A stretch of DNA of 64,000 nucleotides, from the IMG/VR virus record IMGVR_UViG_3300033997_000310, positions 32,001-96,000 of that record. The stretch is one strand, 5' to 3'. A program made the translations under genes and the position numbers. Numbering within the stretch: position 1 is the first letter of the stretch; each line of letters opens with the position of its first letter. The stretch is from a virus. This document shows, in pieces, positions 9,216 to 50,549 of the stretch. The notes below the pieces were generated by a model that was not told the DNA's origin, did no database searches, and saw nothing but the letters and a program-made list of their open reading frames with translations.

Positions 9216-9217
9216 AA

Positions 9218-11557: not shown

Positions 11558-11564
11558 ATCGCCC

Positions 11565-33534: not shown

Positions 33535-33535
33535 G

Positions 33536-35734
33536 ATGGCGCTGACGGGACGCAGCCGGAATGTGGTGCTGGCATGGCAGAACTTCGTGGACGAGAGCAT
33601 CACAGTTCTGACCAGCCCGACATCGTTTGTTTCTGGCATGCCGCTGAGCAACGTCAAGAACGACAGGCTCAAGAAGGTGGCGCGCACCACCGGCAACTCC
33701 GTGATTTTCGACTTCGACTTCGGCCAGGCCGTGCCCATCAGCATGGCCGCGATCCTGGGGCACAATCTCACCGAAAACGCGACCATGCGCATCCAGGCGG
33801 CAAACGCTCGCAGCGGCACGGCCAGCGCGCCGGGCGGCTACACGCTTGCATTGCCTGATCTGGTCTACGACACGCGTCAGACCCTGCGTAGCGGCACCGC
33901 GCGCGGGGCCTACACCTGGACCAGCAGCATGCTGGACCATGATTTCACGACGGGCACACTGCCGGCCGGGTCCAGCTTCAGCCGGGCCAGCCCGGCGACC
34001 TATTTCGACTATACCGGCACCATGCGCACGGCGGCGACCGGGGAGCCGCGGTACGACTACGACCCGGTGACCAAGACGGCGCGCGGCATCCTGATCGAGG
34101 AGGCGCGGACGAACCTGCTGCTGAACAGCGAGGCGCTGTCCACCCAGAGCGTCGTGGTCACCGCGCAGGCATACACGCTGTCATTCTACGGGACTGGTAC
34201 GATTACGCTGTCTGGTGCATCTACCGCGGGCCCGCTGGTGGGGGGCGGCGCCTTTCCGGCGCGCACCACGCTGACCTTCACGCCGGCCGCCGGCACGCTG
34301 ATGCTGACCGTCACCGGCACGGTGCAATATGCCCAGCTGGAAGCCGGTGCTTTCCCGACCAGCTACATCCCAACCACAGCCACCACCGTCACTCGGGCCA
34401 CAGATTTCCTGAATATGCCGACCAGCGTGCTGCCTTTCAATTCGGCGGCAGGCACGTTGTTGACCTCATTCAAAATGCCATATGTGGGCGGCGCCGGTTA
34501 TCCAGGTGCGGCCTTTTTCGATGATGGAACCGTAAACAATTACATTGGCTCGTTCGTGGCTGATGCCGCATCCGATGCGACGTATTTTGAGGTAAAGACG
34601 GGCGGGGTACAGCAATTTTACGGCTCGGTAGGAACATATGTGGCGGGTACGTCTGTTACCGTAGGCGGGGCGTGGTCTGCCGCAAATTTTGCCGCATCCC
34701 TAAATGGTTCTACACCGGCGACGTCATCATCAGGGACAATTCCGACTGTGAACGTGCTCCGCGTCGGCACGTTGTTGGCAAACCTGGCCCCCCTCAACGG
34801 CTGGATCAGTCGCCTGACCTATATCGCCTCCCGCGTCAGCAATGCCGACCTCCAGACCCTGACCAATCCCGCCACGTCGGCAGCCACGCGCGCGGCCACG
34901 CTGGCGCCCTATGCCGGCACGGCCGGCACGGCGGCCATCACCCTGGGCACTGGCAGCAAGACCGTCTATGTCGACGACGCTGACATGCGCTTCTATGCCG
35001 GCACGACCGTGCGGCTGTCTATCGACGACAGCAACTATATGTCCGGCACGGTGACCTCCTATTACCGCCCCTCGCGCCGCTTGGTCATCAACTCGACCAC
35101 CGTCGTCGGGTCCGGCTCTGCAACGACCATGGCCGTCACTCGCGAGACCGACGACATCAAGGTCTGGCCGGATGTGACTCCTTTTGGTGAGGGCGGGTAT
35201 TGGGGGCGGTTCACGTGGGGTGGCCTGCTGTCGCTCGTCGGGAGGGATTACCTCCCGCCTGGCATCCACATGCCGGCGCTATTCACAGGCGATGACGAGC
35301 CGATCTACGCGCGGTATCTGAAGCTGGAAATCACCGACACCAGCCTGAGCTATATCGACATCGGCCGGCTGTTCCTGTCGGCCGCATATCAGCCGACGCG
35401 GAACCTGGAGTTTGATTGGTCGCTTACCCAGGTCGACCCCAGCCCCAAGGAGCGGTCACGGGGTGGGCAGGTCTATGTCGACGGCCGTCCGCAGTATCGA
35501 CGCATCGCACTTCGGCTGTCCGGCATCTCCCGCGACGAAATCATGTCACAGGTCTACGAGATGCAGCGCGAGCTTGGCGTGCGCCGGCCCTTCCTGCTGA
35601 TCGTCGATCCCACGGACCCCATCAACCTGCATCGCCTTACGCTTTATGGCTCGCGGCCAGACGATGCACCCATCAGCAACCCGCTGACCAACAACTATTA
35701 CGCCGTCGAAATCGTCTCAGAGGAGTGGCTGTAA
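33536..35734 (+). CDS. tail protein with inserted spike/fibre (LamG-like) domain
   Basis: FSRASPATY..G.LIEE.RTNLL...QLEAG.F.TSYIPT block. Confidence 0.75.
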   Translation: MALTGRSRNVVLAWQNFVDESITVLTSPTSFVSGMPLSNVKNDRLKKVARTTGNSVIFDFDFGQAVPISMAAILGHNLTENATMRIQAANARSGTASAPGGYTLALPDLVYDTRQTLRSGTARGAYTWTSSMLDHDFTTGTLPAGSSFSRASPATYFDYTGTMRTAATGEPRYDYDPVTKTARGILIEEARTNLLLNSEALSTQSVVVTAQAYTLSFYGTGTITLSGASTAGPLVGGGAFPARTTLTFTPAAGTLMLTVTGTVQYAQLEAGAFPTSYIPTTATTVTRATDFLNMPTSVLPFNSAAGTLLTSFKMPYVGGAGYPGAAFFDDGTVNNYIGSFVADAASDATYFEVKTGGVQQFYGSVGTYVAGTSVTVGGAWSAANFAASLNGSTPATSSSGTIPTVNVLRVGTLLANLAPLNGWISRLTYIASRVSNADLQTLTNPATSAATRAATLAPYAGTAGTAAITLGTGSKTVYVDDADMRFYAGTTVRLSIDDSNYMSGTVTSYYRPSRRLVINSTTVVGSGSATTMAVTRETDDIKVWPDVTPFGEGGYWGRFTWGGLLSLVGRDYLPPGIHMPALFTGDDEPIYARYLKLEITDTSLSYIDIGRLFLSAAYQPTRNLEFDWSLTQVDPSPKERSRGGQVYVDGRPQYRRIALRLSGISRDEIMSQVYEMQRELGVRRPFLLIVDPTDPINLHRLTLYGSRPDDAPISNPLTNNYYAVEIVSEEWL

Positions 35735-37081
35735 ATGCCTGTCGTCAATGGAAACGAATACACCGCAGACGGCAACTTCAATGGCAACAAATACGCCGAC
35801 TCTGCACTGGGGCTGATCCCGGCGCTGACGGACGTGGTTGCGCACTGCGAAGGCATCTTCCGCGGCACCAGCACCAGCAGTGTGACGGTGGGCAATGGCA
35901 CCAAGACGCTGACCATCAGCCTGAACCGGCCGATCTACATCGGCTCGTGGGTGCGCATTGAGGCGCAGGCGAACAGCGCCATCTCGATGGAGGGTACGGT
36001 CACCGCCTACGACAGCGGCACCGGGGTGCTGTCCGTCTCGGTTGACCCCTCTGACGTCAGCGGAGCCGGCACGCTGGCGGCCTGGTACATCTTCACGATG
36101 GGCCGGCGCGGCAAGGACGGCAATGCGGGAACTTTGGCGACGAACAGCGTGGCGGGCGTGGCTGCGCTGGCAACGCAGGCGGAGGTGGACGGCCGCACCA
36201 TCACGGGCAAGATCGTGGCCCCGTCCACGCTGGCGGAAGGGCTGGGCCTGAAGGGCACCGACATCGCCAGCGCATCCACGCTGACGCTGCCCACCATCGG
36301 CGACTATTTTAACGTGACTGGCACCACTGGCATCACCGCCATCAGCACCAGGGCAGCCGGGCGGGACGTTACCCTGGTGTTTGCCGCATCCCTGACTGTG
36401 ACACATAACGGCACCTCGCTGATCCTGCCGGGCGGCGCAAACATCACTGTCGCGGCCGGTGATGTCATGCGCCTGAAGTCCGAGGGAAGTGGAAATTGGA
36501 GGTGCGTCAGCTTCAATAGGGCAAGCCTTGCTGCTGGAGCGCCGGCCCCCGGTGAGTATCTCCTGTCCTATCAGGCCGTGACCGGCTCCCCGTCCCAGAT
36601 CGATATCACTTCAGGAATCACCTCGGCGTATGATCTTTATGTGGTGCGGTTCCTTCTGGTAACGTTTAACAGCATCGTGTCAATCGGGTTGCAGATCGGA
36701 AGCGGCTCTTTCACCACCACGAACTATTTGTATGGCTCCAGTATCAGCCGTAGTTCTTCCGGATCAGTCAGCGCCGCCAATTCAACTTCAGCGTCGGCAA
36801 TTATGTTGACCGCTGCGGGTGACGTTGTGAGCGGTCGTGACGTGATTGGCGAGGTGATTATCAACCGTGCTGATAGCGGGTCTAGTTCCGGTGTGCTTGC
36901 GCGATTCTGGAGCATGTATAGCTATACAGCGGCATCACCAGCGGAAATTGTGCATGTCGTAGGCGCTGGTTGGCGCGCGCCGACACCGATCACTGTCATC
37001 GACCGAATCCGCCTTCTTCCTTCGTCCGGCACATTCCAGAACGCTGGTTACGTCAACCTCTATGGCATCAGGAAGTCGTAA
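35735..37081 (+). CDS. tail fibre / receptor-binding protein
   Basis: ATQAE repeat, DIASA.T.., LILPGGANIT..AGD, C-terminal LYG. Confidence 0.8.
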   Translation: MPVVNGNEYTADGNFNGNKYADSALGLIPALTDVVAHCEGIFRGTSTSSVTVGNGTKTLTISLNRPIYIGSWVRIEAQANSAISMEGTVTAYDSGTGVLSVSVDPSDVSGAGTLAAWYIFTMGRRGKDGNAGTLATNSVAGVAALATQAEVDGRTITGKIVAPSTLAEGLGLKGTDIASASTLTLPTIGDYFNVTGTTGITAISTRAAGRDVTLVFAASLTVTHNGTSLILPGGANITVAAGDVMRLKSEGSGNWRCVSFNRASLAAGAPAPGEYLLSYQAVTGSPSQIDITSGITSAYDLYVVRFLLVTFNSIVSIGLQIGSGSFTTTNYLYGSSISRSSSGSVSAANSTSASAIMLTAAGDVVSGRDVIGEVIINRADSGSSSGVLARFWSMYSYTAASPAEIVHVVGAGWRAPTPITVIDRIRLLPSSGTFQNAGYVNLYGIRKS

Positions 37082-37534
37082 ATGAACGATATTGAAGACA
37101 CCCAGGCCCCTGGCGAGCTACAGAATGCAACGCCAGATGCCAGCGAAAATGATCCGGAGATCTTCACATTCCCGGAAGGTGCGATCACTGTGTTGGAGAA
37201 CGGTATTCCGCGGCTTGCTACGCCGGATGAGGAAGCCGAAATCCTGGCCCGCCAGCAGCCCGCACCGCCGGTCAAGCTCCCGAACATCAGCAAGCTGGCG
37301 TTTCTGGAGTTGTTGGTGGCTGCCCTTGGCGAACACAGGGCGTTGGCGCTATTGCAACCAACGACGCGCTTCGGTCTGATCTTCCTGGCGGCATCGCAGG
37401 TCGATTATGACGACCTGTTCATCGGCATCGACGGAGATCCGGAGCAGGCGTGCTACACGGCCCAGCTTCTTGCGGCCGAAGTGGTGACGCAGGCCGAAAT
37501 TGAGGCCCTGGAAGAATCATGGCCAACGACCTGA
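37082..37534 (+). CDS. tail fibre assembly-like protein
   Basis: Acidic; R..TPDEEAE; follows the fibre gene. Confidence 0.55.
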   Translation: MNDIEDTQAPGELQNATPDASENDPEIFTFPEGAITVLENGIPRLATPDEEAEILARQQPAPPVKLPNISKLAFLELLVAALGEHRALALLQPTTRFGLIFLAASQVDYDDLFIGIDGDPEQACYTAQLLAAEVVTQAEIEALEESWPTT

Positions 37535-38193: not shown

Positions 38194-38478
38194 ATGGCAA
38201 CGGGATACCGCCGCCTCAATGACGGTGATGGCGCAACGCTGGCCAAGGACGCATGCGCCTTGCTGCTGGCGGCACAGAGCAAGCTGGCCCAGGCCGCAGC
38301 GATGGCTGGTGCCGTCCTGGCGCGCGGAACGGCCGCCGAACTGGAGGGCGCTGAATTCGGCGCACAGTCTGGTGAAGGGCAGGCCGTGCATGACGAGATC
38401 GCTGGCCTGAGCAGCGCGCTTGACACCTTCATGTCCACCAATGCGACCAACATCGCCCGGTACAATCCGGGCGGCTGA
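38194..38478 (+). CDS. hypothetical protein
   Basis: AAGGAG RBS. Confidence 0.55.
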   Translation: MATGYRRLNDGDGATLAKDACALLLAAQSKLAQAAAMAGAVLARGTAAELEGAEFGAQSGEGQAVHDEIAGLSSALDTFMSTNATNIARYNPGG

Positions 38479-38494
38479 TCCAGCTATGAAAGAC

Positions 38495-38531
38495 AAAGGC
38501 GCTCACGGTCAAAAGCCGTAGAGCGCCTTTT
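38495..38531. terminator. bidirectional terminator
   Basis: AAAGGCGCTC..GAGCGCCTTT between convergent genes. Confidence 0.65.
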
Positions 38532-39155
38532 CTATTCTTCGTAAGCAGTCATCGAGAAAGCCAGCGTTTTCGCGGCCCCGGCGCGGTTTGTCATGCGGAT
38601 CAGGTAATTGGTCGATGCCTTGAAAATGATTTCGTTGTCGAACCGGAAGTCACCACCAACGGCAGACGATTTCGTCCCGCCTGGATTGAAGCCGGAGTAA
38701 AGCAACGTGCCCGTGGCTGATATGGTCGGTGTGTAAAATGTGTCCGTATCAGGCATGGCCGCGCTGGAGCGGTTGCGATTATGCACCGTCACTGCCGTGC
38801 CATCACCGCTCACTGTAGTGCCTTCGTAGATCAGAATTTCAAAGTTTCCACCGCCGACAACGTCGCAAATGGCGTGGCACTCAATTCCAGCCGGCACCTT
38901 GATCAGGATGTCGGCGTTCGCGTCATCGGCAACCGAAGAAAATACATGGCTGAAGGTGAAGACCTGACCCAGATGGATCCGCTGGTGCACGATCGGCATC
39001 GTGACCAGGGAAGCGCCGATGGCGTCGCTGCCGTTGCGCGATTCGGAGTTGGTTAACTCCACCGGCATTGGCGTAGCCGGCTTGACGACTGTCCGGTTCC
39101 CGCCGGCACTGGCGAACGCGGCAACGTGGATTGGTTCAACGAGCGGTTCGGTCAT
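38532..39155 (-). CDS. hypothetical beta-rich (virion-like) protein
   Basis: 207 aa ORF, no firm family. Confidence 0.6.
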   Translation of the reverse strand: MTEPLVEPIHVAAFASAGGNRTVVKPATPMPVELTNSESRNGSDAIGASLVTMPIVHQRIHLGQVFTFSHVFSSVADDANADILIKVPAGIECHAICDVVGGGNFEILIYEGTTVSGDGTAVTVHNRNRSSAAMPDTDTFYTPTISATGTLLYSGFNPGGTKSSAVGGDFRFDNEIIFKASTNYLIRMTNRAGAAKTLAFSMTAYEE

Positions 39156-39268
39156 GGCGGCTCACCGGGCTTGAGGTGAGCGCATAATACCGCATCCGGT
39201 CGATTGCAGGAATGGCCAACCTATAAGCATGACTTACAGGTTGCTATCGGCCCGCTGGTCAAGTGCTA

Positions 39269-39435
39269 TTTTTCGTCCACGCTCATTTGCGTGGTGAGTG
39301 AATCCAGCCCCAGGTAAACGAGATTCTGCCCCTCATTGCCGCTCCCACTAAGTGCGGGGTGAGTGATCCAGCGCGATGCCATTCATATAAGGCTGTCATG
39401 TTGTCACCCCCGCCCAAATGCGGGGTATGTGAACC
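39269..39435 (-). CRISPR. mini-array 3: three degenerate 35-36 nt repeats, two spacers
   Basis: Repeats at 39269, 39335, 39400 (period 65-66); the 39400 repeat shares 28 nt with the repeat at 42677. Confidence 0.75.
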
Positions 39436-39493
39436 GATCCAGCCACAAAGCACTGACATGGAAAGAAAACCAGCGCCTGTGACCAGGGAAAAA

Positions 39494-41707
39494 TCACGCT
39501 GCGACCTCCTGTTTCACCGCATACGGGAACACTTCCGCGTAACCGTACACATCATCAAACCCCGACCGGAACCGTTCCGGGATGCAGTCGGAGAAGCCGG
39601 CGAACGAGGCGTCGTTGTAAGCCCGCGCCCGGCGGTTGCTGGTGATGCTCTGCGGCAGCGGGAACCGTGGATCGAGCATCCAAACCCGCACGTCGTCGCT
39701 GGCCTGACGGATGCCGCGACCGAAGCCCTGTTTCAGCCGCTTCTTGGCCCCCAGGGCGACGCTGGAGAAGTCGATAGCCCGGATGGCATCTTCCGACAGC
39801 CCGCGCGCACGCAGGGCCGCCGCACGGGCCCCAGAGCGGGCATTATCGAGCGATCCGAACGGCAGTCGGGTGACGACGAGGTTCTGCACCATGCCGGGCA
39901 GATCGACGCCTTCCCATGCCGCCGGGGAAATCAGCAGAGCGTTCGGCGTTTCGCGGTACTTGGCCAGCGCATCAACCAGCTTCGTGCCGCGCACATGCTC
40001 AATCACGTCAACCCCAGCCGCACGGACGCAAGCGGCAATTGCCTGCGTGTCGACATAGCTCGTGGTCAGCACCAGCGTGCGCCCGCCGGCGGCATGGGCC
40101 GCAACGACGCCATCAGCGGCATATTCAACCCAGGCCGGGTTGGTGGTGACGATTTCCTCATCGTCGACCTTGGCCGTGGGGCGGGGAGCGGCGCGATCCG
40201 CCAAATGCAGGGAAGACCAGCGCCCGAACACTTCCGGCGCGAACCGCTGGCACCGATCCGGCGACACGTTCTTGACCTTCTCCGGGTTGGACCGGTCGTA
40301 ATAGATGCCGACCTCGCTGCGGAACGACCGGAAGTCGGCATCGCTTTCCGACTGGCTCCGAGCCGGCGCGTCCAGGGTGGCGCTGGTGAAGACCAGCGAA
40401 CGCAGGAACGGCGCATATTCCGTGCCGTCCGACGACTTGCCGGGCTTGAACAGGCGCGCGGCCAGCCGGCCAGGATAGACCGGCACGATGCTGAGGGACG
40501 GATAGGAGCGTACCGGAGACCAGCGCAGCAGCGGGCACTGAATGGCCGAATGCTCGCCTTCCTTGGCGTCCAGCGTGCCGTTGGCGAAGCTGCGCAGTTC
40601 CTCCACCATGTCACGCATCTCCGCGACGACACCGGCATCAACGCCGGCTTTCTTGCCGCGCGTGGAAGCCTCCAGCAGCAGACCGCTGAGATAGACCGCG
40701 TGCCCCACGGCTTCCTTGCGCAGATCGGCCATGTTCGGGGCCGAAAGCAGGACATGCCCGCCACGATCATCGCGCGTGAAGCCGGGGCGATGCTCCATCT
40801 TCTCGAAGGTGGCCCCCATCCATGCTTCCCAATCCTTCAGGGCGGCGAACGCCTTGATGGTGTCGATACCGGCGTCACTGACGGCGGTGAGCGTGCGGCG
40901 CATCATCGGGGCAGAGACGCGAGTGTCAAAAACCGATTCGGCGGCGTGCGGGATGCGGTCGGCCTCATCGATCACGCCGATATCGAATCCGTCGCTTTCA
41001 CCGGCCAGCAGCCGGTTCCACCGGATGGCGGAAATCATGGTCAGGGCATGGTTGGTGACGACGATATCGGCGGTATGACTGCCAACAACGTGGTCCTTGT
41101 ACCGCTGCTGGTCATCGTCGCTGCACACGGCGGTGAGGCACACGTCTGCCTCGGAAATGCCGCACGGCAGCGGGCCGAACGTCTCTTTCCACTCCGCGAT
41201 ATCGCCGCTGGCCTCTGCGAAGCTGCGCAGCGCCTCCAGGCTGATCCGGGCATCGTCCGTGAGCGCGCCATCGGTGGCCATGGCAGCCATCAGTGCAACG
41301 ATGCGGGACGGTGACAGGAAGTTGCGGCGACCCTTGCGCACGGCGGCGCTGATCTGGATTCCGGTGATGGCCTTGGCGACCGCGATGGCGACCGGCACGT
41401 CCTTGCCCATCAACTGCGTCTGCAGATTGATGGTGTATGTGCTGACCAAGCCGCGCTGCCCGGTGCGGGCGCAATGCACGGCCATGGGAACCAGATAGCC
41501 CAGCGACTTGCCGACGCCGGTTTCGGCTTCATAGAGCGACACTTCGCCGATGCCGGGTGTGGCGTTCTCGAAGCTGTTGGCAACCGCCTTGGCGTAGGCG
41601 ATTTGCTGGGGATTGGGGCGATACGCCTTGCCCAGCTTCTTCATTTCGGCATCAACGGGACCGCCAGCGGCGAACGCGGCGGCGACGATTTCAGAGAGAG
41701 TCGGCAT
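39494..41707 (-). CDS. csf4: CRISPR-associated DinG helicase (Csf4/CasDinG)
   Basis: EAETGVGKSLGYL, ST.TI.LQ.Q, IDEAD, TSATL, WEGVDL, QG.GR.IR; next to csf2 and arrays. Confidence 0.9.
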   Translation of the reverse strand: MPTLSEIVAAAFAAGGPVDAEMKKLGKAYRPNPQQIAYAKAVANSFENATPGIGEVSLYEAETGVGKSLGYLVPMAVHCARTGQRGLVSTYTINLQTQLMGKDVPVAIAVAKAITGIQISAAVRKGRRNFLSPSRIVALMAAMATDGALTDDARISLEALRSFAEASGDIAEWKETFGPLPCGISEADVCLTAVCSDDDQQRYKDHVVGSHTADIVVTNHALTMISAIRWNRLLAGESDGFDIGVIDEADRIPHAAESVFDTRVSAPMMRRTLTAVSDAGIDTIKAFAALKDWEAWMGATFEKMEHRPGFTRDDRGGHVLLSAPNMADLRKEAVGHAVYLSGLLLEASTRGKKAGVDAGVVAEMRDMVEELRSFANGTLDAKEGEHSAIQCPLLRWSPVRSYPSLSIVPVYPGRLAARLFKPGKSSDGTEYAPFLRSLVFTSATLDAPARSQSESDADFRSFRSEVGIYYDRSNPEKVKNVSPDRCQRFAPEVFGRWSSLHLADRAAPRPTAKVDDEEIVTTNPAWVEYAADGVVAAHAAGGRTLVLTTSYVDTQAIAACVRAAGVDVIEHVRGTKLVDALAKYRETPNALLISPAAWEGVDLPGMVQNLVVTRLPFGSLDNARSGARAAALRARGLSEDAIRAIDFSSVALGAKKRLKQGFGRGIRQASDDVRVWMLDPRFPLPQSITSNRRARAYNDASFAGFSDCIPERFRSGFDDVYGYAEVFPYAVKQEVAA

Positions 41708-41822
41708 GTTTGAGTTCCTGTTTGCAGATGGTGATGGGAAAGGTACATCATGGCGGGCAATGAGAAAAGTGCATAATTTGACCGGCCCCGGCAGGCGGGG
41801 GGATTTTTGCGTTCATCACTCA

Positions 41823-43108
41823 GTTGACGGACCCGCAGCGGCGGGTGGCGGCATGAACGAGAAGCCGCAGTTGCGCACCTCTTTTTCGTCCCCGCGCTGG
41901 CGGGGAAAGGGGCGTTGCCGAATCCGTCCTTTATCAATTTCCATACCCGCAACTGCGTGGTCGCTTGGTCGGCGGTCGTGACCGCTCCACCACCGAGTTT
42001 TCACCCCCGCGTGTGCGGGGAAGGCCACGGCTGTCTTGCGCGTCGGTCTACGGAGCCATTTTTCATCCCCGCGCGTGCGGAGCAGCATTGGCGCTGGATA
42101 TCATCGCGGACCTGAACCAATTTCCGTCCCCGCACGTGCGGGGGAGGCCTGGACGGCAGAGACCTACCAGCGCCTCGATTGTTTTCGTCCCCGCGCGTGC
42201 GGGGGATACCCCGCCACCTATCGCCGCAATGGCGTGTTCCTGTTTTCGTCCCCGCGCGTGCGGGGGAGGAATGAACATCCAATCAATGTGCAAGCCCTGC
42301 CACTTTCCGCCCCCGCCCATGCAAGGCTTCCCATTTTATCAAGCAGTCGTCATTGGCCGCTCTTTCCACCCCCGCCATGCAGGGAACCGTCCGCCCGATG
42401 TTGGCTCCATCCATCTGGTTGTCGTCCCAACGAGTGCTGGGAAAGTGATTCTGCCACGGGTTGAAATGGTGGCGTCGATATTTTCACCCCCACTGGATTG
42501 CGGGGTAGGTGAGGCATCGTATCGGTTTCGTCAGACCCGGCCAAGTTTCCGTCCCCACCAGAATGCGGGGCAAGAGAGACGAAGGCTGGCACGTTCAAGG
42601 TGGTGTTCGTGTTTCCGTCCCCACCAGAATGCGGGGTAAGCAAAACGCTGTCCTTGCCGCTGGTACGTCGCCTCACGTTTCCGGCCCCGCCCAAATGCGG
42701 GGTATGTGAACCCTCATTTTTCCGATTTCGTACCCATCAAACGTTTTCGTCCCCGCCCAAATGCGGGGTAAGAGAGACACATGCACAAGGCTGGCCTGAT
42801 AACCGGTTGTTTCCGTCCCCACCTAAATGCGGGGTAAGAGAGACCGGCGCCCGGGTGAAGCGGATGGCCCGCCAGTTGTCGTCCCCACCTAAATGCGGGG
42901 TAAGAGAGACACATCGGGGGGTGAATCCGAACAGCGATCTGTTGTCGTCCCCACCTAAATGCGGGGTAAGAGAGACGCTCGTCATCGCTCAGAAGATCCC
43001 GCTCCAGTTGTCGTCCCCACCTAAATGCGGGGTAAGAGAGACTCCCGCCGACGGCCATCGGGCGCGGTATAGGTTGTCGTCCCCACCTAAATGCGGGGTA
43101 AGAGAGAC
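41823..43108 (-). CRISPR. main array, about 21 repeats; leader-proximal repeat GTCTCTCTTACCCCGCATTTAGGTGGGGACGACAAC, about 30 nt spacers
   Basis: 36-nt repeats at 43073, 43007, 42941, 42875, 42809, 42743, 42677, 42611, 42545, 42480; shorter, diverged repeats at about 42418, 42362, 42303, 42242, 42181, 42120, 42059, 41997, 41937, 41882, 41823. Confidence 0.93.
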
Positions 43109-43200
43109 TGATCCTAACACAACTCATTGCAATCAAATACGAATTACGCATTCGCATTTGAAAAAAACCATGATGTACTTGTTCAAGAACCGGTGAAAAT
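43109..43200 (-). promoter_or_regulatory. AT-rich CRISPR leader
   Basis: AT-rich and adjacent to the most uniform repeats; junction GATCCTAACACAACTCATTG resembles GATCCAGCCACAAAGCACTG beside mini-array 3. Confidence 0.65.
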
Positions 43201-43209
43201 GCGCGCTTT

Positions 43210-44271
43210 TTACGGCGCGCGGAAGTTCAGGCTGGTCACGTCGGTGGCATCCCAGGCCGCCAGCGCGGAAGCGATGATGCCGGTATCCAGCAACTCCAGG
43301 CCACCGAACGGTTCGATCTGGACGCTGCCGACATTTGCGAAGCCGTCACCTTCCCGCACCGTCACCGTCCAGGTGCCGCTGATCACCCCGCAGCCGTGAT
43401 TCGCGTGCGCCCCGACAACCGGGTCCAGCGCCAACTCACGCAGCGCGGCCAAGAACAGGCCCAACTCCAGCTTGGTCACGTTCCGCAGAACCATGCGCTG
43501 GTTCAGCACCTTACCCTGCGGGATCACCTCGTAACCGCCCAACACCTGCTTGATGTTGACGCCGGCGGCCTCGACCTGCCCCTTCAGCGCGTCACGCTTG
43601 GCGGACAGTTCCGCGACTTCAGCAGCCGCATCGGCATTGCCCTTGGCGTTCTTCACGGCCTTGCGCAGGGCCGTCTCGATGTTCTTCAGTTCGGCCTTGG
43701 CCTTGCTGTTGCTGGCACCTTCCTCCGACATGGACAGCCACTTGTCGCGCTCGCCATCAGCCAGGGTATTGAGCGTGTCCGGGGTGCGTTCCATGTCATC
43801 GCTGCGGATGCCAGCGATCTTATCCGGTTCGGTCGGCTGTTCCGGCACGGCATGGCTCACCATCAGCTTGCCGGCGGTATGCGCGGCCATGCTGCCGAAA
43901 AGCGAGATCAGCGGGTTCGCGGCACGCAGATTGGCCGCCGCGATGATATCGGCCTTGCTGTCGCTGCCCTTGTCCTTGATGCCGCCGACCACGTTGAAAT
44001 AGTGGTCATCCAGGGTGAAGACGGGAGCGCCATCACCCTGCACCGCGCGGCGAACGACGGTGAGCGCGTGCCGACGCAGCTTTCCGCGCAAGCCGGAGCC
44101 AGGGAAATAGACGGTCTCGGCATTGCCCACGGTCATGCGGGGCAGACGCGACGGCGGGTTCTTCTCGCGTTCGGCGCGCTTCTCGGTCTCGGTCTTCGGC
44201 GGGCAGGTGGCCAGAGGCGATTCGGTGGTGATGGTGCCGTTCAGGACGACGGTATAGGTCTGGGTGTTCAT
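43210..44271 (-). CDS. csf2: type IV Cas7-like backbone protein Csf2
   Basis: PGSGLRGKLRR, NPLISLFG, G.L, GAH...GCG. Confidence 0.9.
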   Translation of the reverse strand: MNTQTYTVVLNGTITTESPLATCPPKTETEKRAEREKNPPSRLPRMTVGNAETVYFPGSGLRGKLRRHALTVVRRAVQGDGAPVFTLDDHYFNVVGGIKDKGSDSKADIIAAANLRAANPLISLFGSMAAHTAGKLMVSHAVPEQPTEPDKIAGIRSDDMERTPDTLNTLADGERDKWLSMSEEGASNSKAKAELKNIETALRKAVKNAKGNADAAAEVAELSAKRDALKGQVEAAGVNIKQVLGGYEVIPQGKVLNQRMVLRNVTKLELGLFLAALRELALDPVVGAHANHGCGVISGTWTVTVREGDGFANVGSVQIEPFGGLELLDTGIIASALAAWDATDVTSLNFRAP

Positions 44272-44321
44272 GTTCGTGTTCCATGTTGGGTAGGTGCGGG
44301 GTGGCCCGCGATCGAGTGTGT

Positions 44322-44662
44322 TTTGTCGGCCCCGCGTGGGCGGGGCATGAGCAGAAACCCACTCGACCTCTGGGCGGTGACTTTTCGCCCCCGCGTGTGC
44401 GGGGCGAGAGTCGGTCGGGATGTGGCCAATCACCTTCTCGTTATCGTACCCGCGCGGGTGCGGGTTTTGGTCTTGACTGTCACTGAACTTCGCAATCTCC
44501 ATCCTCTTGCCGTCCCCGTGCTCGTGCGGGGTGAGGGGTGCGTCGTTCGATTACTCGGATGACAACGAAGTCCTTACCGTCCCCGCGCACGTGCGAGGCA
44601 TCGGCTGTTGTGCTTTCGGATCAAGACCAGCCCTTTCCATCCCCACTCACGCCGGGAACAGC
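44322..44662 (-). CRISPR. array 2: six degenerate repeats between cas6 and csf2
   Basis: CCCCGC-loop-GCGGGG-type hairpins with 8-nt handles at 44322, 44381, 44440, 44506, 44573, 44633 (periods 59-67). Confidence 0.8.
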
Positions 44663-45222
44663 CGCAACATCCCCATGCCATAGCTCTTGGCCGGGCCGAT
44701 GCCGATCTTCATCGCATCCGTCAGTGCATCGGCATCGGTAACGCGCAACGCGCCGGTGAAGGTGGTGAAATCTAAGCCGTCCTTGCCGATCTTCGCCTCG
44801 TTGCGCATGACATGGCGGAACTCTGTGCGGAGCGCGACTTGCTCGACCACGAAGCCGTGCTTCAGCCCGCGCGCCTTGAGCCAGTCCATCCGGCCCTCAT
44901 CGTCCCCACGACGCAGCATCACGCGCTTGCCGCGCTGCCCGCCGTTGCGCTGATCCACGCGGATGCACCGCGTCGGATGCGCCGTCAGCACGAAGCGGTA
45001 CGTGCAGCCTTCGACTGGCAATGCCACGTCGTCGGCGTGCTGGGCAACTGTATCGGGCAGGTTGTCTGAGCGAATCACGATGCCAGGCGCGGCCTCGTCA
45101 ATCGCAAACAGGAAATCCCGCGTCTTGTCGCTGCCTTCACCAAGCATGAAGGCATAGGCCATTTCATGCAGAGCATAGCGGTTGTGGGGCAGGGCGGGCA
45201 GTTGGATGGAGACTTCACGCAT
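44647..45222 (-). CDS. cas6e: Cas6e-like crRNA processing endoribonuclease
   Basis: Y.LH, F.L.A.PT, WL......GF, F.G.L.V.D, GIGPAKSYGMGML glycine-rich loop. Confidence 0.9.
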   Translation of the reverse strand: MREVSIQLPALPHNRYALHEMAYAFMLGEGSDKTRDFLFAIDEAAPGIVIRSDNLPDTVAQHADDVALPVEGCTYRFVLTAHPTRCIRVDQRNGGQRGKRVMLRRGDDEGRMDWLKARGLKHGFVVEQVALRTEFRHVMRNEAKIGKDGLDFTTFTGALRVTDADALTDAMKIGIGPAKSYGMGMLRLFPA

Positions 45223-45225
45223 TTT

Positions 45226-45903
45226 TCAGCCCTCGTTCTTCTCGCGGTCACCGCACAGCAGCGACAGCATGTTGAAATCATCGCTGCCCACGGCGGGCAG
45301 GCGGTCGATAACGGCGTCCAGCGCCGGGCACTTGACGATCATGGCGTCGATTTCTGCGTCGATCGATTCCGCCTCTGAGTGATTGCGCTTACGGCGCTCC
45401 AGGGCGCGGGCGGCGGCCCGCCATTGCATCGGCGCGATGCCGTCCAGATCGGCATAAAGGCCTGCAACCAGGGCGCGGTTGATGGTTGCGGTCTCGACGC
45501 CGGAAAGGCTGATCACATCGCTGCCGTAATTGATCCGCCAGTTGTGGATCGTGTTCCAGTCCTTGCCATGGATGACGACCATGAACGGGCTGGCCGGCGG
45601 CGACAGGACGATTTCGGCAATCCAGTTGGGAATAGTGCGCCAAGATCCATCATGGATCACAGTGCTGGCCGGCGGCTGGCGGCACGGCTTGATATCGGCC
45701 ATCAGCACGCAGCCGGTCTCAGTGACCAGCGACATGGCCTTGCCGCCACCCAGGCGAACCGCAGAACCGGCATTGGCCGCGTGCGCGTGGTTGCGGGACA
45801 GGGCAACGATGGCCGGATTGCTTTCATTACTCACGGCAGAATGAAGGTACTGGCCAATGCCGCGATACCAGAAATCCAGCGGGTCAAGGTTGATGATGTC
45901 CAT
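45226..45903 (-). CDS. divergent Csf1/Cas8-like large subunit
   Basis: Position between csf3 and cas6; L.PP.SPF...H..W block; no N-terminal CxxC finger visible. Confidence 0.6.
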   Translation of the reverse strand: MDIINLDPLDFWYRGIGQYLHSAVSNESNPAIVALSRNHAHAANAGSAVRLGGGKAMSLVTETGCVLMADIKPCRQPPASTVIHDGSWRTIPNWIAEIVLSPPASPFMVVIHGKDWNTIHNWRINYGSDVISLSGVETATINRALVAGLYADLDGIAPMQWRAAARALERRKRNHSEAESIDAEIDAMIVKCPALDAVIDRLPAVGSDDFNMLSLLCGDREKNEG

Positions 45904-45911
45904 TGCTTGCC

Positions 45912-46598
45912 TCATGCGGCCAGAAAGCGCGGGGAAATCACGGCGTCGCCAACCGGATTAGGCACGGCGCACAGTGCGTAGTCGCCTTGCCAATACGGCG
46001 GCTGAAATCGCTCCGCATTCAGCGCGGCGCGCTGATTGGACAGCTTCCCCCAGATGCTGACGGGGACAGGCCGGGCCGGACTGCCATCAGCCAGGGCCAA
46101 GCCGACGTGGTGGCCAGTCACTTCCCGCACATCAATGCGGGACACCTGACCATATCCGACGGAACGCTTGGTTCCGATGCCAGATGCGTCGGACAGCAAA
46201 TCCTTGACGGCGGCAACGTCTCCGGTTCCGCAGAACCAGACGGCATCGGCATTGATGCTGGTGTATTCCGACAGGCTGTTCTGGTAATCGCCCCGCGCGC
46301 TGTCGATGCGCGGGAGCGCCTTGCGCCCGCCGTTCGGCCGGATCATGTCCGGCGTAATTTCCATGTCGGCACGGATTGAGCCGACGATCATCACGCCGCG
46401 CAATGGAGAATTGCCATCGATGAAAGCCTGCGAACCAGCCCAGACGCCGCTGCTGCGATCCAGCGGGATTTCTGCGTGTGCGCGTTCAACGCTGCCGGTG
46501 CGCTCATAAATCAGCGCCGCAAGCAGTCCATCAAGCAGCAGCCGACGACCCGGAATGACCGGTGTTGCCATGCTGATCTTGATCACAAACGGGGTCAT
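45912..46598 (-). CDS. csf3: type IV Cas5-like protein Csf3
   Basis: TPV...LDGLLA, IPL, W..S, GD...V..LL....IG.KR..GYG.V, RPVP, PPYW; GGAGG RBS. Confidence 0.88.
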   Translation of the reverse strand: MTPFVIKISMATPVIPGRRLLLDGLLAALIYERTGSVERAHAEIPLDRSSGVWAGSQAFIDGNSPLRGVMIVGSIRADMEITPDMIRPNGGRKALPRIDSARGDYQNSLSEYTSINADAVWFCGTGDVAAVKDLLSDASGIGTKRSVGYGQVSRIDVREVTGHHVGLALADGSPARPVPVSIWGKLSNQRAALNAERFQPPYWQGDYALCAVPNPVGDAVISPRFLAA

Positions 46599-46763
46599 CC
46601 GACCTCCTGTTGTCTGCGTTTCGATGGGCTGATATTGATAAATTCCATTACGCAACGCAAGCAGGAAAATGAGAAAAGTTCATTATATTGCTGCGAGGCA
46701 TGAGATTGGACGTTTTCCAGATTCGCGGTATGATGGCGCGACTCGGGAAGCAATGGGGCCGCC

Positions 46764-47417
46764 ATGTCGATCATCACGCTTTCGCTGCTGGCAGCCGCCA
46801 TGCCGGACTCCACTACACAGAACCGCGAGCGATATGCCGATCCGCTGGGCGACGCCTGCGTTCGCTTCGGAATCACGTCCCCCAAGCAAATCGCCATGTT
46901 CATTGCCCAAGTCGGGCATGAGAGCGGCTATCTCCGTAGCGTTCAGGAAAGCCTGAACTACCGGGCCGAGGCGCTGGTTCCGACCTTCGGTTCGCATCGC
47001 ATCACCGCTGAACAGGCGGCCCGGCTTGGCCGTTCCGGTGATCGTCCGGCTGATCAACAGGGCATCGCCAACGTCGTGTATGGCGGAAGGTTCGGCCAGG
47101 ACATTCTTGGCAACACCGAACCAGGCGACGGCTGGCGGTTCCGCGGCCGCGGGCTGATCCAGACGACGGGCCGGAAGAACTATGCGACGTGCGGGGCTGG
47201 TATCGGCCTCGACCTGATCAGCAATCCTGACTTGCTTCTTGAGCCTGAACATGCCGCCGCGTCAGCCGGTTGGTTCTGGTCATCGCGTGGTCTGAACCGG
47301 TTCGCGGACGCTGGAGACCTTGAAGGTTGCACCAAGAAGGTCAACGGCGGACTGAAGGGCTTGGATGATCGCCGGGCCATCTATGACCGCGCCCGGAAAG
47401 TGTTCGGGTTGCCATGA
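46764..47417 (+). CDS. endolysin, glycoside hydrolase family 19
   Basis: AQVGHES, YGGR..GN..GDGWRFRGRGLIQ.TGR.NY, VNGG..GL.DR. Confidence 0.93.
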   Translation: MSIITLSLLAAAMPDSTTQNRERYADPLGDACVRFGITSPKQIAMFIAQVGHESGYLRSVQESLNYRAEALVPTFGSHRITAEQAARLGRSGDRPADQQGIANVVYGGRFGQDILGNTEPGDGWRFRGRGLIQTTGRKNYATCGAGIGLDLISNPDLLLEPEHAAASAGWFWSSRGLNRFADAGDLEGCTKKVNGGLKGLDDRRAIYDRARKVFGLP

Positions 47418-47689
47418 CCGATTCCGCTTACACACACACCGAAGGCGCTTTCCCGAACACCCCGCGCTGGTCTGCTCGGCGCTTTGGCATGATCCTGGCC
47501 CTGTTTATGTCCGGCGTCATCATGATCGGCCTTGGCGTGCATCCAGGTATTGCGGAAGCGCGGGCACTCCGCCTGATCGACGCCGGAACGGAATGCCTCA
47601 TGTTTTCGTCGCTTGGCTTTGCGTTTGCCGCGTCGGCTGAGCGCATCGGCGGGTGGTGGACTGCCAAGCGACCGGTGGCGGCATCATGA
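47414..47689 (+). CDS. holin candidate
   Basis: Two transmembrane segments, overlapping the endolysin stop. Confidence 0.65.
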   Translation: MTDSAYTHTEGAFPNTPRWSARRFGMILALFMSGVIMIGLGVHPGIAEARALRLIDAGTECLMFSSLGFAFAASAERIGGWWTAKRPVAAS

Positions 47690-47964
47690 AGCTGCTGTTC
47701 TGCCGGGAATGCGGCGATGTCCGCAAGCTGCATGTCAATCGTGAATTGCATGCGTGCGCCTGTGGTGCGTCCGCTGGCCGGTATGTCGATGGGCTGAACG
47801 CCGAAGTGACCGGCCCGTGCCTCGCTCTTGGCATCGACAACAACTCGCTGCGCCTGGCTCTCACAAACCACGAGCGGTCACCACGTATGGACGGCCTGGG
47901 TCACCGCATCGAGGCGTTCATCATCCCTGAAACGGCCCCAACCCTTCGGAGGGTGCAAAGATGA
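47686..47964 (+). CDS. hypothetical zinc-binding protein
   Basis: C..C.D...C.CG. Confidence 0.6.
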   Translation: MKLLFCRECGDVRKLHVNRELHACACGASAGRYVDGLNAEVTGPCLALGIDNNSLRLALTNHERSPRMDGLGHRIEAFIIPETAPTLRRVQR

Positions 47965-48467
47965 TTCCGTTCATTGCGCCACTGCTGGCCGGGCGCGGCC
48001 TAAAGCTGCTGCTGATCGGCGGCGCTGTCGCTGCCGTTGGCTTCGCCGGCTTCCTGGCATACCGCTACGTGGACGGCCTGACCGAAAAGGTCGCCATCCT
48101 GTCGGCCAACAACGCCAAGCTGGAACTGGCATTCCAAGAGGCACAGGCCCGTGGCGATGCGCTGCGGGACCATATCCAGCGCGTGGCCATCGAGGTGGAG
48201 GAAAACAACAAGCGCCTGTCCGATCTGGCGGTTGAAGCCGCCACCGCCCGCGCCGAAGCCAAGGCCACCGCCAACCTTTTCGCCAAGCACGACTTCAAGG
48301 GGCTCGTCAATGCCAAGCCGGAACTTCTGGAGAAGCGCATCAATGCTGGCACTGCTCGCGTGCAGCGCCTGCTCGAACAAGCCAGCACCGTTGGAGGTGA
48401 AGCTGGCTCCGGAGCCGCCGCCGGCCAAGGTGCAACTGGCGCTGCCTCCGGTTCCGGACCCCGTTGA
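47961..48467 (+). CDS. Rz-like inner-membrane spanin
   Basis: N-terminal transmembrane segment then coiled coil, KP.L.EKRIN.G. Confidence 0.8.
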   Translation: MIPFIAPLLAGRGLKLLLIGGAVAAVGFAGFLAYRYVDGLTEKVAILSANNAKLELAFQEAQARGDALRDHIQRVAIEVEENNKRLSDLAVEAATARAEAKATANLFAKHDFKGLVNAKPELLEKRINAGTARVQRLLEQASTVGGEAGSGAAAGQGATGAASGSGPR

Positions 48468-49274: not shown

Positions 49275-50549
49275 TTACTTGATGGCGATTTTGACAATGG
49301 TACTGACTTGACCATCGAAGCCAAACTTTGGCGCGTGGTTTTCTACCATCTCATCTTTGTACGATTGCAGCAGATGGCCGTAGTGCTTCTCCACCATGCG
49401 GGTGTCCGTATGCCCAAGGTTCTGCGCCAGCACCAGCATCGGCATGCCGTTCATCAGGCTGAGGCTGGCATAGGTGTGTCGCAGCTCGTGGAAAGTGCAG
49501 CGCGGCTCGATCCGGCCATTCACGCATGCGGCTTCCACCCGGCGTGATTGGTGGTTTGGCCCCCACGGGTCGCCGTCCGGCCTGGGTAGCATCGGCGTCG
49601 TTTTATGTCGGCCGGCAACCTGTGCATCGAAGAACGCACGGCCTTCTGCTGTGAGGCTGATCCAGCGCGACTTGCCGTCTTTCGTGTCGCCAAAGAACAG
49701 CCGGCCCTGCTGATAATCGCCCACCCGCAACCGGCATAGCTCGCTGTATCGCGCGCCCGTGTGCAGGCCCGCAATGATCATGGGGCGGAAATCAGGATCG
49801 CAGGCATTCACCAGTCGGCGGGCCTCGTCCGGCTCCAGAAAACGGATGCGCGCGGCGTCGACGCCCTCAAACGGCTCGATGCGATCCCAGGCCGCGGTGC
49901 TGATGGCCTCGTTCTCGCGTGCGGCATGGTTCAGCAGCGCCTTCAACGTCGTCAGCACACCGTTCGCAGTGCTGCGCCGGGCCCTGATCTCGTCCTTCGT
50001 CTGCGGCGGCGGGGCAAATTTCTGCGCCTCACCCTTGCGCGTGCGCAGCCGGCGGCCGGAGCTGGCCACCTTGTTGAGCCATGTTCGGATCTGACGACTG
50101 GTCAGTTCGCGCACCACCAGCTTGCCCAGGTCGGGCAGGATGTGCGCGTCGATCGTTTTCTGGAACTGCTGCACCGACTTCCGCTGCGTGCGGAACCAGG
50201 CCATGTAGTCGTCCGCGGCCTCTTTCACAGTGAGGTCGGCCCGGCCCCGGCCGGCCAGCTCGTGCGCGCGGGCCTCGAACCAATCGCGCGCCGCGCCCTG
50301 CGCCTGCTGCCAGGACAGGACATGCACGCCGTCCGCGTCCAGCGTGTCGTCTGCGGCGCCAAGGCGGCGCTCCTCGTGCTTCTTGTCGCCCAGATACATG
50401 CGGGCGATCCAGGCCCCGCCGGTGGCCGTCTTGCGGTAGCCAATGCTCCGGCCATGCTCCAGGGTATGCCAGTAGGGTTTCTTCGAGGCGGAAAGCCGCT
50501 CACGGCCCTTGCGGGTCTCCAAGCGGCTGTCGCGGGTTAGCCGTGCCAT
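49275..50549 (-). CDS. int: tyrosine integrase
   Basis: TGAR.SEL, K, HELRHTYAS, LGH, HY; arm-binding-type N-terminus; AAGGAGG RBS. Confidence 0.95.
   Translation of the reverse strand: MARLTRDSRLETRKGRERLSASKKPYWHTLEHGRSIGYRKTATGGAWIARMYLGDKKHEERRLGAADDTLDADGVHVLSWQQAQGAARDWFEARAHELAGRGRADLTVKEAADDYMAWFRTQRKSVQQFQKTIDAHILPDLGKLVVRELTSRQIRTWLNKVASSGRRLRTRKGEAQKFAPPPQTKDEIRARRSTANGVLTTLKALLNHAARENEAISTAAWDRIEPFEGVDAARIRFLEPDEARRLVNACDPDFRPMIIAGLHTGARYSELCRLRVGDYQQGRLFFGDTKDGKSRWISLTAEGRAFFDAQVAGRHKTTPMLPRPDGDPWGPNHQSRRVEAACVNGRIEPRCTFHELRHTYASLSLMNGMPMLVLAQNLGHTDTRMVEKHYGHLLQSYKDEMVENHAPKFGFDGQVSTIVKIAIK

What the first reader, a model, noticed from the sequence alone, without database searches (positions are those of the whole stretch)
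39269..44662. CRISPR arrays interleaved inside the cas operon, with one repeat overlapping the cas6 stop codon
Seen: the minus-strand order is csf3-csf1-cas6-[6 repeats]-csf2-[leader + about 21 repeats]-dinG-[short leader-like junction + 3 repeats]. All repeats face the same way as the genes (hairpin then 8-nt handle). The first repeat of array 2 (44633-44662) is built from the last codons of cas6, and its TGA (44647-44649) lies within the hairpin. Inference: Cas6 would cut the polycistronic mRNA right after its own ORF and between genes. One transcript would then supply both mRNA and crRNA, and cleavage could set subunit stoichiometry or give autoregulation.
Basis: partly seen in the sequence, partly recalled or inferred. 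Interest (0 to 1): 0.82.

Follow-up and report, generated by a model that had tools for sequence, protein, structure and literature searches.

The report
CRISPR arrays embedded between phage cas genes

Summary
On the minus strand the order is csf3(cas5), cas8-like, cas6e, array A2 (6 repeats), csf2(cas7), a 100-nt AT-rich leader, array A1 (21 repeats), dinG, array A3 (3 repeats).

- All 30 repeats face the same way as the genes.
- They keep a 6-bp G+C hairpin (175 of 180 stem positions paired, four compensatory A-T swaps) followed by an 8-nt handle.
- The unit over the cas6e stop codon is a real repeat: 20.3 bits in a leave-one-out matrix, against a maximum of 16.9 anywhere else in the 114.8-kb phage.
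- A second assembler and a second sample give the same junctions.

The layout is not a one-off.
- An unrelated metagenome contig (L003, Csf2 38% identical) has cas6e, 9 nt, 7 repeats, 23 nt, csf2, 12 nt, 19 repeats, dinG, 10 nt, 10 repeats, csf3.
- An array between csf2 and dinG occurs in 7 of 10 same-order relatives.

- Co-transcription of A2 with cas6e and csf2 is hard to avoid.
- dinG, however, has its own promoter-like box, duplicated from the csf3 promoter, and A1 has a leader. "One transcript" is therefore too strong.
- Cleavage, stoichiometry control and autoregulation are untested, and no RNA run was found.

I rate it a new variant of a known kind (type IV-A, closest to IV-A3). The scan found no such layout on other DNA.

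The parts
46668..46690 (-). Promoter-like box of the effector operon: TATAAT followed by ATGAACTTTTCTCATT
   Evidence: Sequence. G+C dips to 0.51 here. The 16-nt box has exactly two perfect copies in the window. No TSS data.
45912..46597 (-). csf3 (cas5); probable start ATG 46597 behind AGGAGG (the open frame reaches TTG 46655)
   Evidence: PADLOC Csf3_0_IV 2.4e-37 and TIGR03116 9.6e-11; start read.
45226..45915 (-). cas8-like large subunit (csf1 position), 229 aa
   Evidence: No Pfam, NCBIfam, PADLOC or PHROG hit. Conserved next to cas6e in relatives. The model with pLDDT 92 matches 8RC2_G, 7XG1_A and 8RC3_G, all type IV-A complexes.
44647..45222 (-). cas6e, 191 aa, catalytic His19 present
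   Evidence: PF08798 9.1e-26 and TIGR01907 above its cut-off. Aligns to residues 14-198 of the 199 of E. coli CasE 4QYZ_K.
44633..44662 (-). A2 repeat 1: its 5' half is the last cas6e codons (L-F-P-A) and the TGA 44649-44647 lies in the hairpin loop
   Evidence: Matrix score 20.3 bits against a null maximum of 16.9. 5 of 6 stem pairs, with one G-G mismatch.
44321..44662 (-). Array A2: 6 heterogeneous repeats and 5 unique spacers, no leader
   Evidence: Junction confirmed by independent contigs.
43210..44271 (-). csf2 (cas7), 353 aa, ATG 49 nt after the last A2 repeat
   Evidence: PADLOC Csf2_0_IV 6.2e-53 and TIGR03115. Relatives align from residues 1-7.
43109..43209 (-). AT-rich leader of A1 (G+C about 0.50)
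   Evidence: Partly alignable with the leader of L037.
41823..43108 (-). Array A1: 21 repeats. Ten leader-proximal units of 36 nt with 30-nt spacers (66-nt period), then degenerate units, then I-E-like units of 29 nt with 32-nt spacers (61-nt period)
   Evidence: The distal part matches I-E arrays of Acetobacter and Streptomyces plasmids.
41759..41800 (-). Promoter-like box upstream of dinG: second perfect copy of the 16-nt element, about 50 nt alignable with the csf3 upstream region
39494..41707 (-). dinG (csf4), 737 aa
   Evidence: PADLOC Csf4_0_IVA 2e-140 and PF13307.
39269..39435 (-). Array A3: 3 repeats and 2 unique spacers, starting 58 nt after the dinG stop
   Evidence: One compensatory A-T pair in repeat 3.

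Best explanation
[quoted passage not shown] Its CRISPR arrays occupy the gaps between cas genes, on the same strand as those genes.

Shown:
- All 30 repeats are genuine and co-oriented with the genes.
- They are under selection for the Cas6e-type hairpin plus 8-nt handle.

Inferred:
- Array A2 is transcribed as part of the csf3, cas8-like, cas6e, csf2 message.
- Array A3 is transcribed as the 3' end of the dinG message.
- Cas6e therefore releases crRNAs from these messages and in doing so cuts them. The cas6e cistron would end in a hairpin that holds its own stop codon. The csf2 cistron would be freed with a 5'-OH end.
- Array A1 has its own leader, and dinG probably has its own promoter, so that part is less dependent on read-through.

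Speculative:
- The cuts are used to uncouple csf2 from the single-copy subunits (Cas7 is needed at about 5-6 copies per complex).
- The cuts feed back on Cas6e.
For: - Gene identities.
- Repeats: 175 of 180 stem cells paired and four compensatory double changes, against a shuffle maximum of 171. Handle positions G3, A6 and A7 are invariant in all 30 units. The stop-codon repeat is beyond every background score.
- Spacers: all unique and none matches the phage itself.
- Packing: 0 nt between cas6e and A2, 49 nt from A2 to csf2, 58 nt from dinG to A3. No minus-strand promoter or terminator match in 38400-48000.
- Independent lineage L003: arrays lie 9, 23, 12, 10 and 30 nt from the flanking ORFs, and csf2 has a GAAGGA ribosome site 23 nt after the last repeat.
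- An array between csf2 and dinG is present in 7 of 10 same-order relatives.
- Published: Cas6 products carry 5'-OH and 2',3'-cyclic phosphate ends, and the ratios are Cas5:Cas8:Cas7:Cas6 = 1:1:5-6:1 (PMC11519345). A cas mRNA that reads into an array is documented in M. xanthus type III-B (PMC6061681).
- The assembly is sound.
Against: - There are no RNA data of any kind, so no cleavage site, transcript end or start is shown.
- dinG has a promoter-like box duplicated from the csf3 promoter, and A1 has a leader. The single-transcript picture fails for that half.
- The closest relatives available (L037 and L038, Csf2 62-68% identical) have no array between cas6e and csf2. A2 is therefore not needed for the system to work.
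- The first A2 hairpin carries a G-G mismatch that a synonymous CCG to CCC change would remove. This argues against strong selection on that hairpin.
- In a 439-nt minimum-energy fold the first and fifth A2 hairpins are replaced by long-range pairs.
- The host's promoter types are unknown, so the promoter scan is weak evidence.
Confidence: 0.6

Rival explanations
1. The interleaving is a neutral by-product of recombination between repeats. Arrays act as recombination sites that shuffle cas gene cassettes. A2 and A3 are stranded, decaying array fragments, tolerated but without a regulatory role. They may still yield some crRNAs.
For: - Gene order differs between relatives in a way that looks like cassette shuffling at arrays. 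L003 is a cyclic permutation of the window, with csf3 after the third array instead of first. Other loci have dinG-csf3 inverted.
- A2 and A1 mix two repeat classes with 61- and 66-nt periods.
- A2 repeats are heterogeneous and have no leader.
- A2 is absent from the closest relatives.
- From memory, and not checkable here because the paper is not held: Moya-Beltran et al. 2021 reported extensive gene shuffling and unusually heterogeneous repeats in type IV loci.
Against: - Hairpins and handle positions are kept through compensatory changes even in the most diverged units. Free decay would not do this.
- In L003 the array between cas6e and csf2 has seven near-identical repeats, not a decaying remnant.
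- Even if the origin is recombination, co-transcription and cutting would still follow from the layout.
Confidence: 0.27
2. A2 and A3 are regulatory mini-arrays of the kind described in type I, II and V loci. Their cr-like RNAs would pair partially with promoters of the locus or of phage or host genes and repress them.
For: - Mini-arrays and single repeats between cas genes are common in type I loci, and some repress cas promoters (preprint 10.1101/2023.03.03.530964).
- Type IV-A acts by transcriptional repression, so self-regulation is mechanistically easy.
Against: - Spacers of A2 and A3 give only 11-13-nt matches to the phage genome at chance level (E 0.04-0.7), and none lies in the three promoter-like regions.
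- Six- and three-repeat arrays are longer than the usual two-repeat mini-array.
Confidence: 0.08
3. Assembly artefact: repeats caused a chimeric join that placed array pieces between genes.
For: Metagenome assemblies often break or misjoin at repeats. Logan's assembly does break inside the identical leader-proximal A1 repeats.
Against: - A second assembler gives single contigs across csf3 to the first A1 repeat and across distal A1, dinG and A3, with no differences.
- A second sample holds the cas6e-A2 junction.
- L003 from an unrelated metagenome has the same layout.
Confidence: 0.02

Closest known systems
Type IV-A3 CRISPR-Cas of Klebsiella pneumoniae IncHI1B/IncFIB plasmids (e.g. pENVA; structure 8RC2)
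   Same: - Csf2, Csf3, DinG, a small Cas8-like subunit and a Cas6e-family nuclease.
- cas8-like and cas6e are adjacent.
- An array directly follows csf2.
- No Cas1, Cas2 or nuclease.
   Different: - pENVA order is cas8, cas6e, dinG, cas5, cas7, then one terminal array.
- Here cas5 leads, dinG lies behind the array, and two further arrays sit between cas6e and csf2 and after dinG.
- Csf2 is only about 28-32% identical.
- The carrier is a tailed phage, not a conjugative plasmid.
Metagenome locus L003 (WUUC01233982.1), an undescribed relative
   Same: The same interleaving: cas8-like, cas6e, array, csf2, array, dinG, array. All are co-oriented, with a 66-nt period and a repeat that starts GTCTC.
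   Different: - csf3 follows the third array.
- There is no leader after csf2.
- The first repeat starts 9 nt after the cas6e stop and does not overlap it.
- Repeats are nearly uniform.
- Csf2 is 38% identical.
Myxococcus xanthus type III-B CRISPR4-Cas operon (PMC6061681)
   Same: cas genes and the array are made as one polycistronic RNA, which Cas6 then processes.
   Different: The array is terminal there, so processing does not separate one cas ORF from another.
Intergenic mini-arrays and single repeat units in type I, II and V cas loci (preprint 10.1101/2023.03.03.530964)
   Same: Repeat-like units located between cas genes.
   Different: - Those are mostly two-repeat units in long intergenic regions.
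- They have spacers that partly match cas promoters.
- Type IV was not covered.
- No such matches were found here.
E. coli type I-E CasE (Cas6e) and its repeat
   Same: - Full-length alignment and the catalytic His.
- A G+C hairpin followed by an 8-nt handle.
- The distal A1 repeats have I-E geometry: 29-nt repeats and 32-nt spacers.
   Different: This Cas6e serves a type IV-A effector. The leader-proximal repeats are 36 nt with 30-nt spacers.

Membership tests
Type IV-A CRISPR-Cas | Csf2 (type IV Cas7) | tested here: met
   PADLOC Csf2_0_IV 6.2e-53; TIGR03115 1.3e-12, below its curated cut-off of 130 bits.
Type IV-A CRISPR-Cas | Csf3 (Cas5) | tested here: met
   PADLOC Csf3_0_IV 2.4e-37.
Type IV-A CRISPR-Cas | Small Cas8-like large subunit (Csf1) | tested here: met
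   By fold only: the model matches chains of 8RC2, 7XG1 and 8RC3. No sequence family hit. The N-terminal zinc-finger cysteines of Csf1 were not seen.
Type IV-A CRISPR-Cas | DinG/Csf4 helicase | tested here: met
   PADLOC Csf4_0_IVA 2e-140; PF13307. Pfam reports helicase domains only.
Type IV-A CRISPR-Cas | Cas6-family nuclease and an associated array | tested here: met
   Cas6e; three arrays.
Type IV-A CRISPR-Cas | No adaptation module | tested here: met
   No Cas1 match in the whole 114.8-kb record; the control genomes did give matches. Cas2 was not searched separately.
Type IV-A CRISPR-Cas | crRNA-guided, nuclease-free interference | not testable with these tools
   Needs experiments.
Type IV-A3 variant | Gene order cas8, cas6e, dinG, cas5, cas7, then array | tested here: not met
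   The order here is cas5, cas8, cas6e, array, cas7, array, dinG, array.
Cas6e (CasE/Cse3) | Family profile above the curated cut-off, and a catalytic histidine | tested here: met
   PF08798 91.9 bits (cut-off 25); TIGR01907 71.7 bits (cut-off 45.2); His19 aligns with E. coli His20.
CRISPR array (for A2 and A3) | Three or more co-oriented repeats at regular spacing with unique spacers | tested here: met
   A2 has 6 units spaced 57-67 nt. A3 has 3 units spaced 64-67 nt. All spacers are unique.
CRISPR array (for A2 and A3) | Transcribed and processed into crRNAs | not testable with these tools
   No run on record as RNA was listed for this stretch.

The most novel reading that the evidence does not exclude
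In a clade of type IV-A systems, CRISPR repeats have been taken over as RNA punctuation inside the cas operon. Cas6e cutting at embedded arrays would be an evolved way to split the message, giving the csf2 (Cas7) cistron a separate fate from the single-copy subunits. A Cas6e-bound hairpin that holds the cas6e stop codon would give feedback on Cas6e synthesis. One RNA would then be guide source, mRNA and regulator together.
Probability: 0.25. Interest if true: 0.8.

Novelty: new variant of a known kind. Interest (0 to 1): 0.6.

Why it matters
Textbook CRISPR loci keep arrays outside the cas genes. Here, and in an unrelated relative, arrays lie between ORFs with no room for separate promoters. 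Guide production and cas mRNA fate should therefore be physically linked. That would be a natural version of the Cas6/Csy4 cleavage sites that synthetic biologists insert to insulate genes within operons. It also gives a direct way to ask how class 1 systems reach their roughly 1:1:6:1 subunit ratios. It adds a phage-borne, Cas6e-dependent type IV-A lineage with a compact 7.5-kb locus that could be tested in a laboratory strain. In the papers I could search I found no description of arrays embedded inside a type IV operon. The most relevant paper, Moya-Beltran 2021, was not available to read.

Tried and rejected
The contigs of the two closest Csf2 relatives (P0002 70%, P0003 62%) could not be fetched that way. 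L037 and L038 from IMG/VR stood in for them.
- RNA evidence: no RNA holder was listed, so expression and processing could not be examined.
- Protospacers:
  - No convincing spacer match in PLSDB plasmids. The hits there were dinG or csf2 coding sequence, or I-E repeats.
  - None in phage records; those hits lie in csf2 coding sequence.
  - None in IMG/VR for three spacers searched with every sixth base free.
  - None in the phage's own genome.
- Rfam gave nothing relevant in 39000-47000.
- 401 genomes of the order of the Roseomonas relative held Csf2 of this clade only in that relative itself. One genome-contig scan gave 3 loci. The first try failed for lack of a conserved stretch.
- The Atlas look-up for the cas8-like protein gave nothing above noise. 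A profile of it against PDB sequences found nothing. Only the fold search worked.
- A single repeat-like hairpin 3 nt after the cas6e stop in L037/L038 scored 9.7 bits. One of 17,990 positions in L037 and 44 of 229,602 in the phage reach that score. It is suggestive only and is not used as evidence.
- The 22nd 'repeat' of A1 (41799-41774) was rejected as a repeat. It aligns with the csf3 upstream region instead.
- The 189-aa ORF at 47252-46683 has no hits and an Arg/Ala-rich composition, and was not counted as a gene.
- Moya-Beltran et al. 2021 (PMC8658065) is not held.


Full report
**What is there**

The window is part of a 114,801-bp IMG/VR virus record with direct terminal repeats. It is a tailed phage. 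A 1,687-aa tape measure protein and tail proteins lie just upstream on the plus strand, and an integrase lies at 49275-50549.

On the minus strand between 46700 and 39269 lie the following genes:
- csf3/cas5 (PADLOC Csf3_0_IV 2.4e-37);
- a 229-aa protein with no family hit;
- cas6e (PF08798 9e-26; TIGR01907 above its cut-off);
- csf2/cas7 (Csf2_0_IV 6e-53);
- dinG/csf4 (Csf4_0_IVA 2e-140).

The 229-aa protein is conserved beside cas6e in relatives. With an alignment of 14 relatives it folds at pLDDT 92. Its three best structural matches are all chains of type IV-A effector complexes. The first is 8RC2 chain G (E 1.5e-5, TM 0.61). That chain has 263 residues, which is the size of the first gene of the K. 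pneumoniae pENVA IV-A3 locus. I therefore read it as the Cas8-like large subunit.

No Cas1 is encoded anywhere in the record.

**The repeats**

Thirty repeat units lie in three blocks, all on the gene strand:
- A2: 6 units, 44662-44321, between cas6e and csf2.
- A1: 21 units, 43108-41823, behind a 100-nt leader of about 50% G+C after csf2.
- A3: 3 units, 39435-39269, starting 58 nt after the dinG stop.

Each unit is a 6-bp G+C stem followed by an 8-nt handle. Across the 30 units, 175 of 180 stem cells pair. Four units carry double, compensating changes to A-T. When 5' strands were dealt among repeats, the mean was 164 paired cells and the maximum 171. Handle positions 3, 6 and 7 are invariant. 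The hairpin and handle are therefore kept while the rest of the repeat drifts, which is what a Cas6e substrate and Cas5-bound tag would need.

All 26 spacers are unique, and none matches the phage itself beyond chance.

**The repeat over the stop codon**

The hairpin at 44657-44640 reads TCCCGGC-GTGA-GTGGGGA. The cas6e TGA (44649-44647) is in its loop, and the handle ATGGAAAG follows.

In a leave-one-out position matrix built from the other 29 repeats it scores 20.3 bits. None of 229,602 positions in the rest of the phage, with the arrays masked, exceeds 16.9. It also lies in phase, 59 nt before the next unit.

Cas6e aligns with E. coli CasE to its last residues (LRLFPA* against LSLAPL*). The 5' half of this repeat is therefore native coding sequence, not a tail added by the array. 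The stem has one G-G mismatch. A synonymous CCG to CCC change would remove it, so selection for a perfect hairpin is not evident.

**Assembly**

Logan's separate assembly of the main DNA run gives one contig over 43080-46700 and another over 39200-42843, both without differences. It breaks only in the identical leader-proximal A1 repeats. A second sample of the same study holds 44431-44678 exactly.

**Relatives**

Csf2 of this clade is rare: 16 clusters at E<=1e-10 in the large protein set. Loci came from metagenomes, genomes and IMG/VR. I mapped them with tblastn and a repeat finder.

L003 is the key comparison. Its Csf2 is 38% identical and its hairpin sequence differs, but it has the same interleaving, packed very tightly:
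- cas6e stop, then 9 nt, then 7 repeats, then 23 nt, then the csf2 ATG with a GAAGGA ribosome site;
- csf2 stop, then 12 nt, then 19 repeats, then about 280 nt, then dinG;
- dinG stop, then 10 nt, then 10 repeats, then about 30 nt, then csf3.

An array between csf2 and dinG is present in L003, L016, L017, L019, L022 and L034, as in the window. L037 has an array right after csf2 before its contig ends. L015, L023 and L028 have none there. Several relatives have further arrays upstream of csf3 or after dinG.

An array between cas6e and csf2 is found only in the window and L003. In 17 other loci the gap is 2-129 nt, and L037/L038, the closest relatives I could fetch, have about 40 nt.

**How it probably works**

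Two AT-rich regions stand out: upstream of csf3 and the A1 leader. Upstream of csf3 there is a perfect TATAAT followed by ATGAACTTTTCTCATT. The same 16-nt element, differing only at its degenerate fourth base (C for A), occurs once more, 52 nt upstream of the dinG ATG behind a -10-like AATTAT. About 50 nt of the two regions align. There are no other close copies in 64 kb, where 0.44 are expected by chance.

I therefore infer three start regions: csf3, the leader, and dinG.

Between the cas6e stop and the csf2 ATG there is only the array plus 49 nt. The consensus scan finds no minus-strand promoter or terminator anywhere in 38400-48000. csf2 must then be read from RNA that crosses A2, and A3 must ride on the dinG message.

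If Cas6e treats these hairpins as it treats any repeat, it cuts at the 3' base of each stem. It has the catalytic His. The known Cas6 chemistry gives 5'-OH and 2',3'-cyclic phosphate ends (PMC11519345).

That would leave the csf3, cas8 and cas6e message ending in a hairpin that holds the cas6e stop codon. It would release five crRNAs and free a csf2 message with a 5'-OH leader. Cas7 is needed at 5-6 copies per complex, against one each of Cas5, Cas8 and Cas6 (PMC11519345). A separate fate for the csf2 message is therefore an attractive use of the cut, and in both the window and L003 this extra array stands directly in front of csf2. This last step is inference only.

**Limits**
- No RNA run holds the locus.
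- The promoter scan assumes sigma-70-type sites.
- A global fold of 439 nt does not keep the first and fifth A2 hairpins. Co-transcriptional folding and protein binding are not modelled there.
- The closest relatives lack A2, so it is dispensable.
- Gene order varies among relatives as if cassettes were exchanged at arrays. That fits an origin by repeat recombination. I give the neutral by-product reading about a quarter of the odds.
- A role as promoter-targeting mini-arrays, as described for type I loci (preprint 10.1101/2023.03.03.530964), finds no support in the spacer matches.

**Comparison with what is known**

By content this is type IV-A: Csf2, Csf3, a Cas8-like subunit, DinG, Cas6, arrays, and no Cas1. 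It is closest to IV-A3, which also pairs a Cas8-like gene with cas6e and places an array after csf2. It fails the IV-A3 gene order.

Cas-gene messages that read into a terminal array are known (PMC6061681). So are repeat-like units between cas genes of types I, II and V. The type IV surveys and reviews I could read do not mention arrays inside the operon (PMC7038947, PMC8175902, PMC12669027). The paper most likely to bear on it, Moya-Beltran et al. 2021, is not held. From memory it reports gene shuffling and very heterogeneous repeats in type IV loci, which agrees with what is seen here.

**Verdict**

I rate it a new variant of a known kind, with interest 0.6.

Noticed in passing
window 46668-46683 and 41759-41774 (minus strand): A 16-nt element, ATG[A/C]ACTTTTCTCATT (an ATG-N9-CAT shape), occurs exactly twice in 64 kb, each time behind a -10-like hexamer: upstream of csf3 and upstream of dinG. 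It is likely a shared promoter/operator that co-regulates the two halves of the locus.
   Followed up: partly
window 43108-41823: Array A1 is composite. It has ten 36-nt repeats with 30-nt spacers (66-nt period) next to the leader, a degenerate middle, and then 29-nt I-E-like repeats with 32-nt spacers (61-nt period). L003, L034 and L037 all use the 66-nt form, so that form is native to the clade. The 61-nt part resembles I-E arrays of Acetobacter and Streptomyces plasmids and may have been captured by recombination.
   Followed up: partly
L037 7838-7859 (and L038): A solitary repeat-like hairpin with a handle (CCCCGCATCTGGGG ATGATGAT) lies 3 nt after the cas6e stop codon in the closest relatives, which have no array there. 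The matrix score is only 9.7 bits, roughly p = 0.01 for that gap.
   Followed up: partly
L019 4573-4604 and L022 5614-5645: A conserved terminator-like hairpin (CCCGAA-TTTT-TCGGG followed by TTTTG) sits between the last repeat of the csf2-dinG array and dinG. It could attenuate read-through into dinG in those relatives.
   Followed up: no
window 41786-41800 (plus strand): A terminator-like hairpin with a T-run on the plus strand, at the dinG-proximal end of A1. It could stop antisense transcription into the array.
   Followed up: no
window 44309-44296 (minus strand): A short hairpin, GCGGG-CCAC-CCCGC, lies in the 49 nt between the last A2 repeat and the csf2 ATG. It looks like an inverted half-repeat. 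Its role is unknown.
   Followed up: no
window 26123-37534 and 49275-50549: Phage context: tape measure protein (1,687 aa), tail and tail-fibre-like proteins on the plus strand just before the locus, and a tyrosine integrase after it. The type IV-A locus sits in a tailed phage that also encodes an integrase.
   Followed up: partly
L034 (Roseomonas sp. CAU 1739, NZ_JBDOQQ010000013.1) 6123-12107: This is the only cultured-organism genome found with this Csf2 clade. It has csf3, cas6e, csf2, 16 repeats, then dinG. No Cas1 was found in that genome. It hints at Acetobacteraceae-like hosts.
   Followed up: partly
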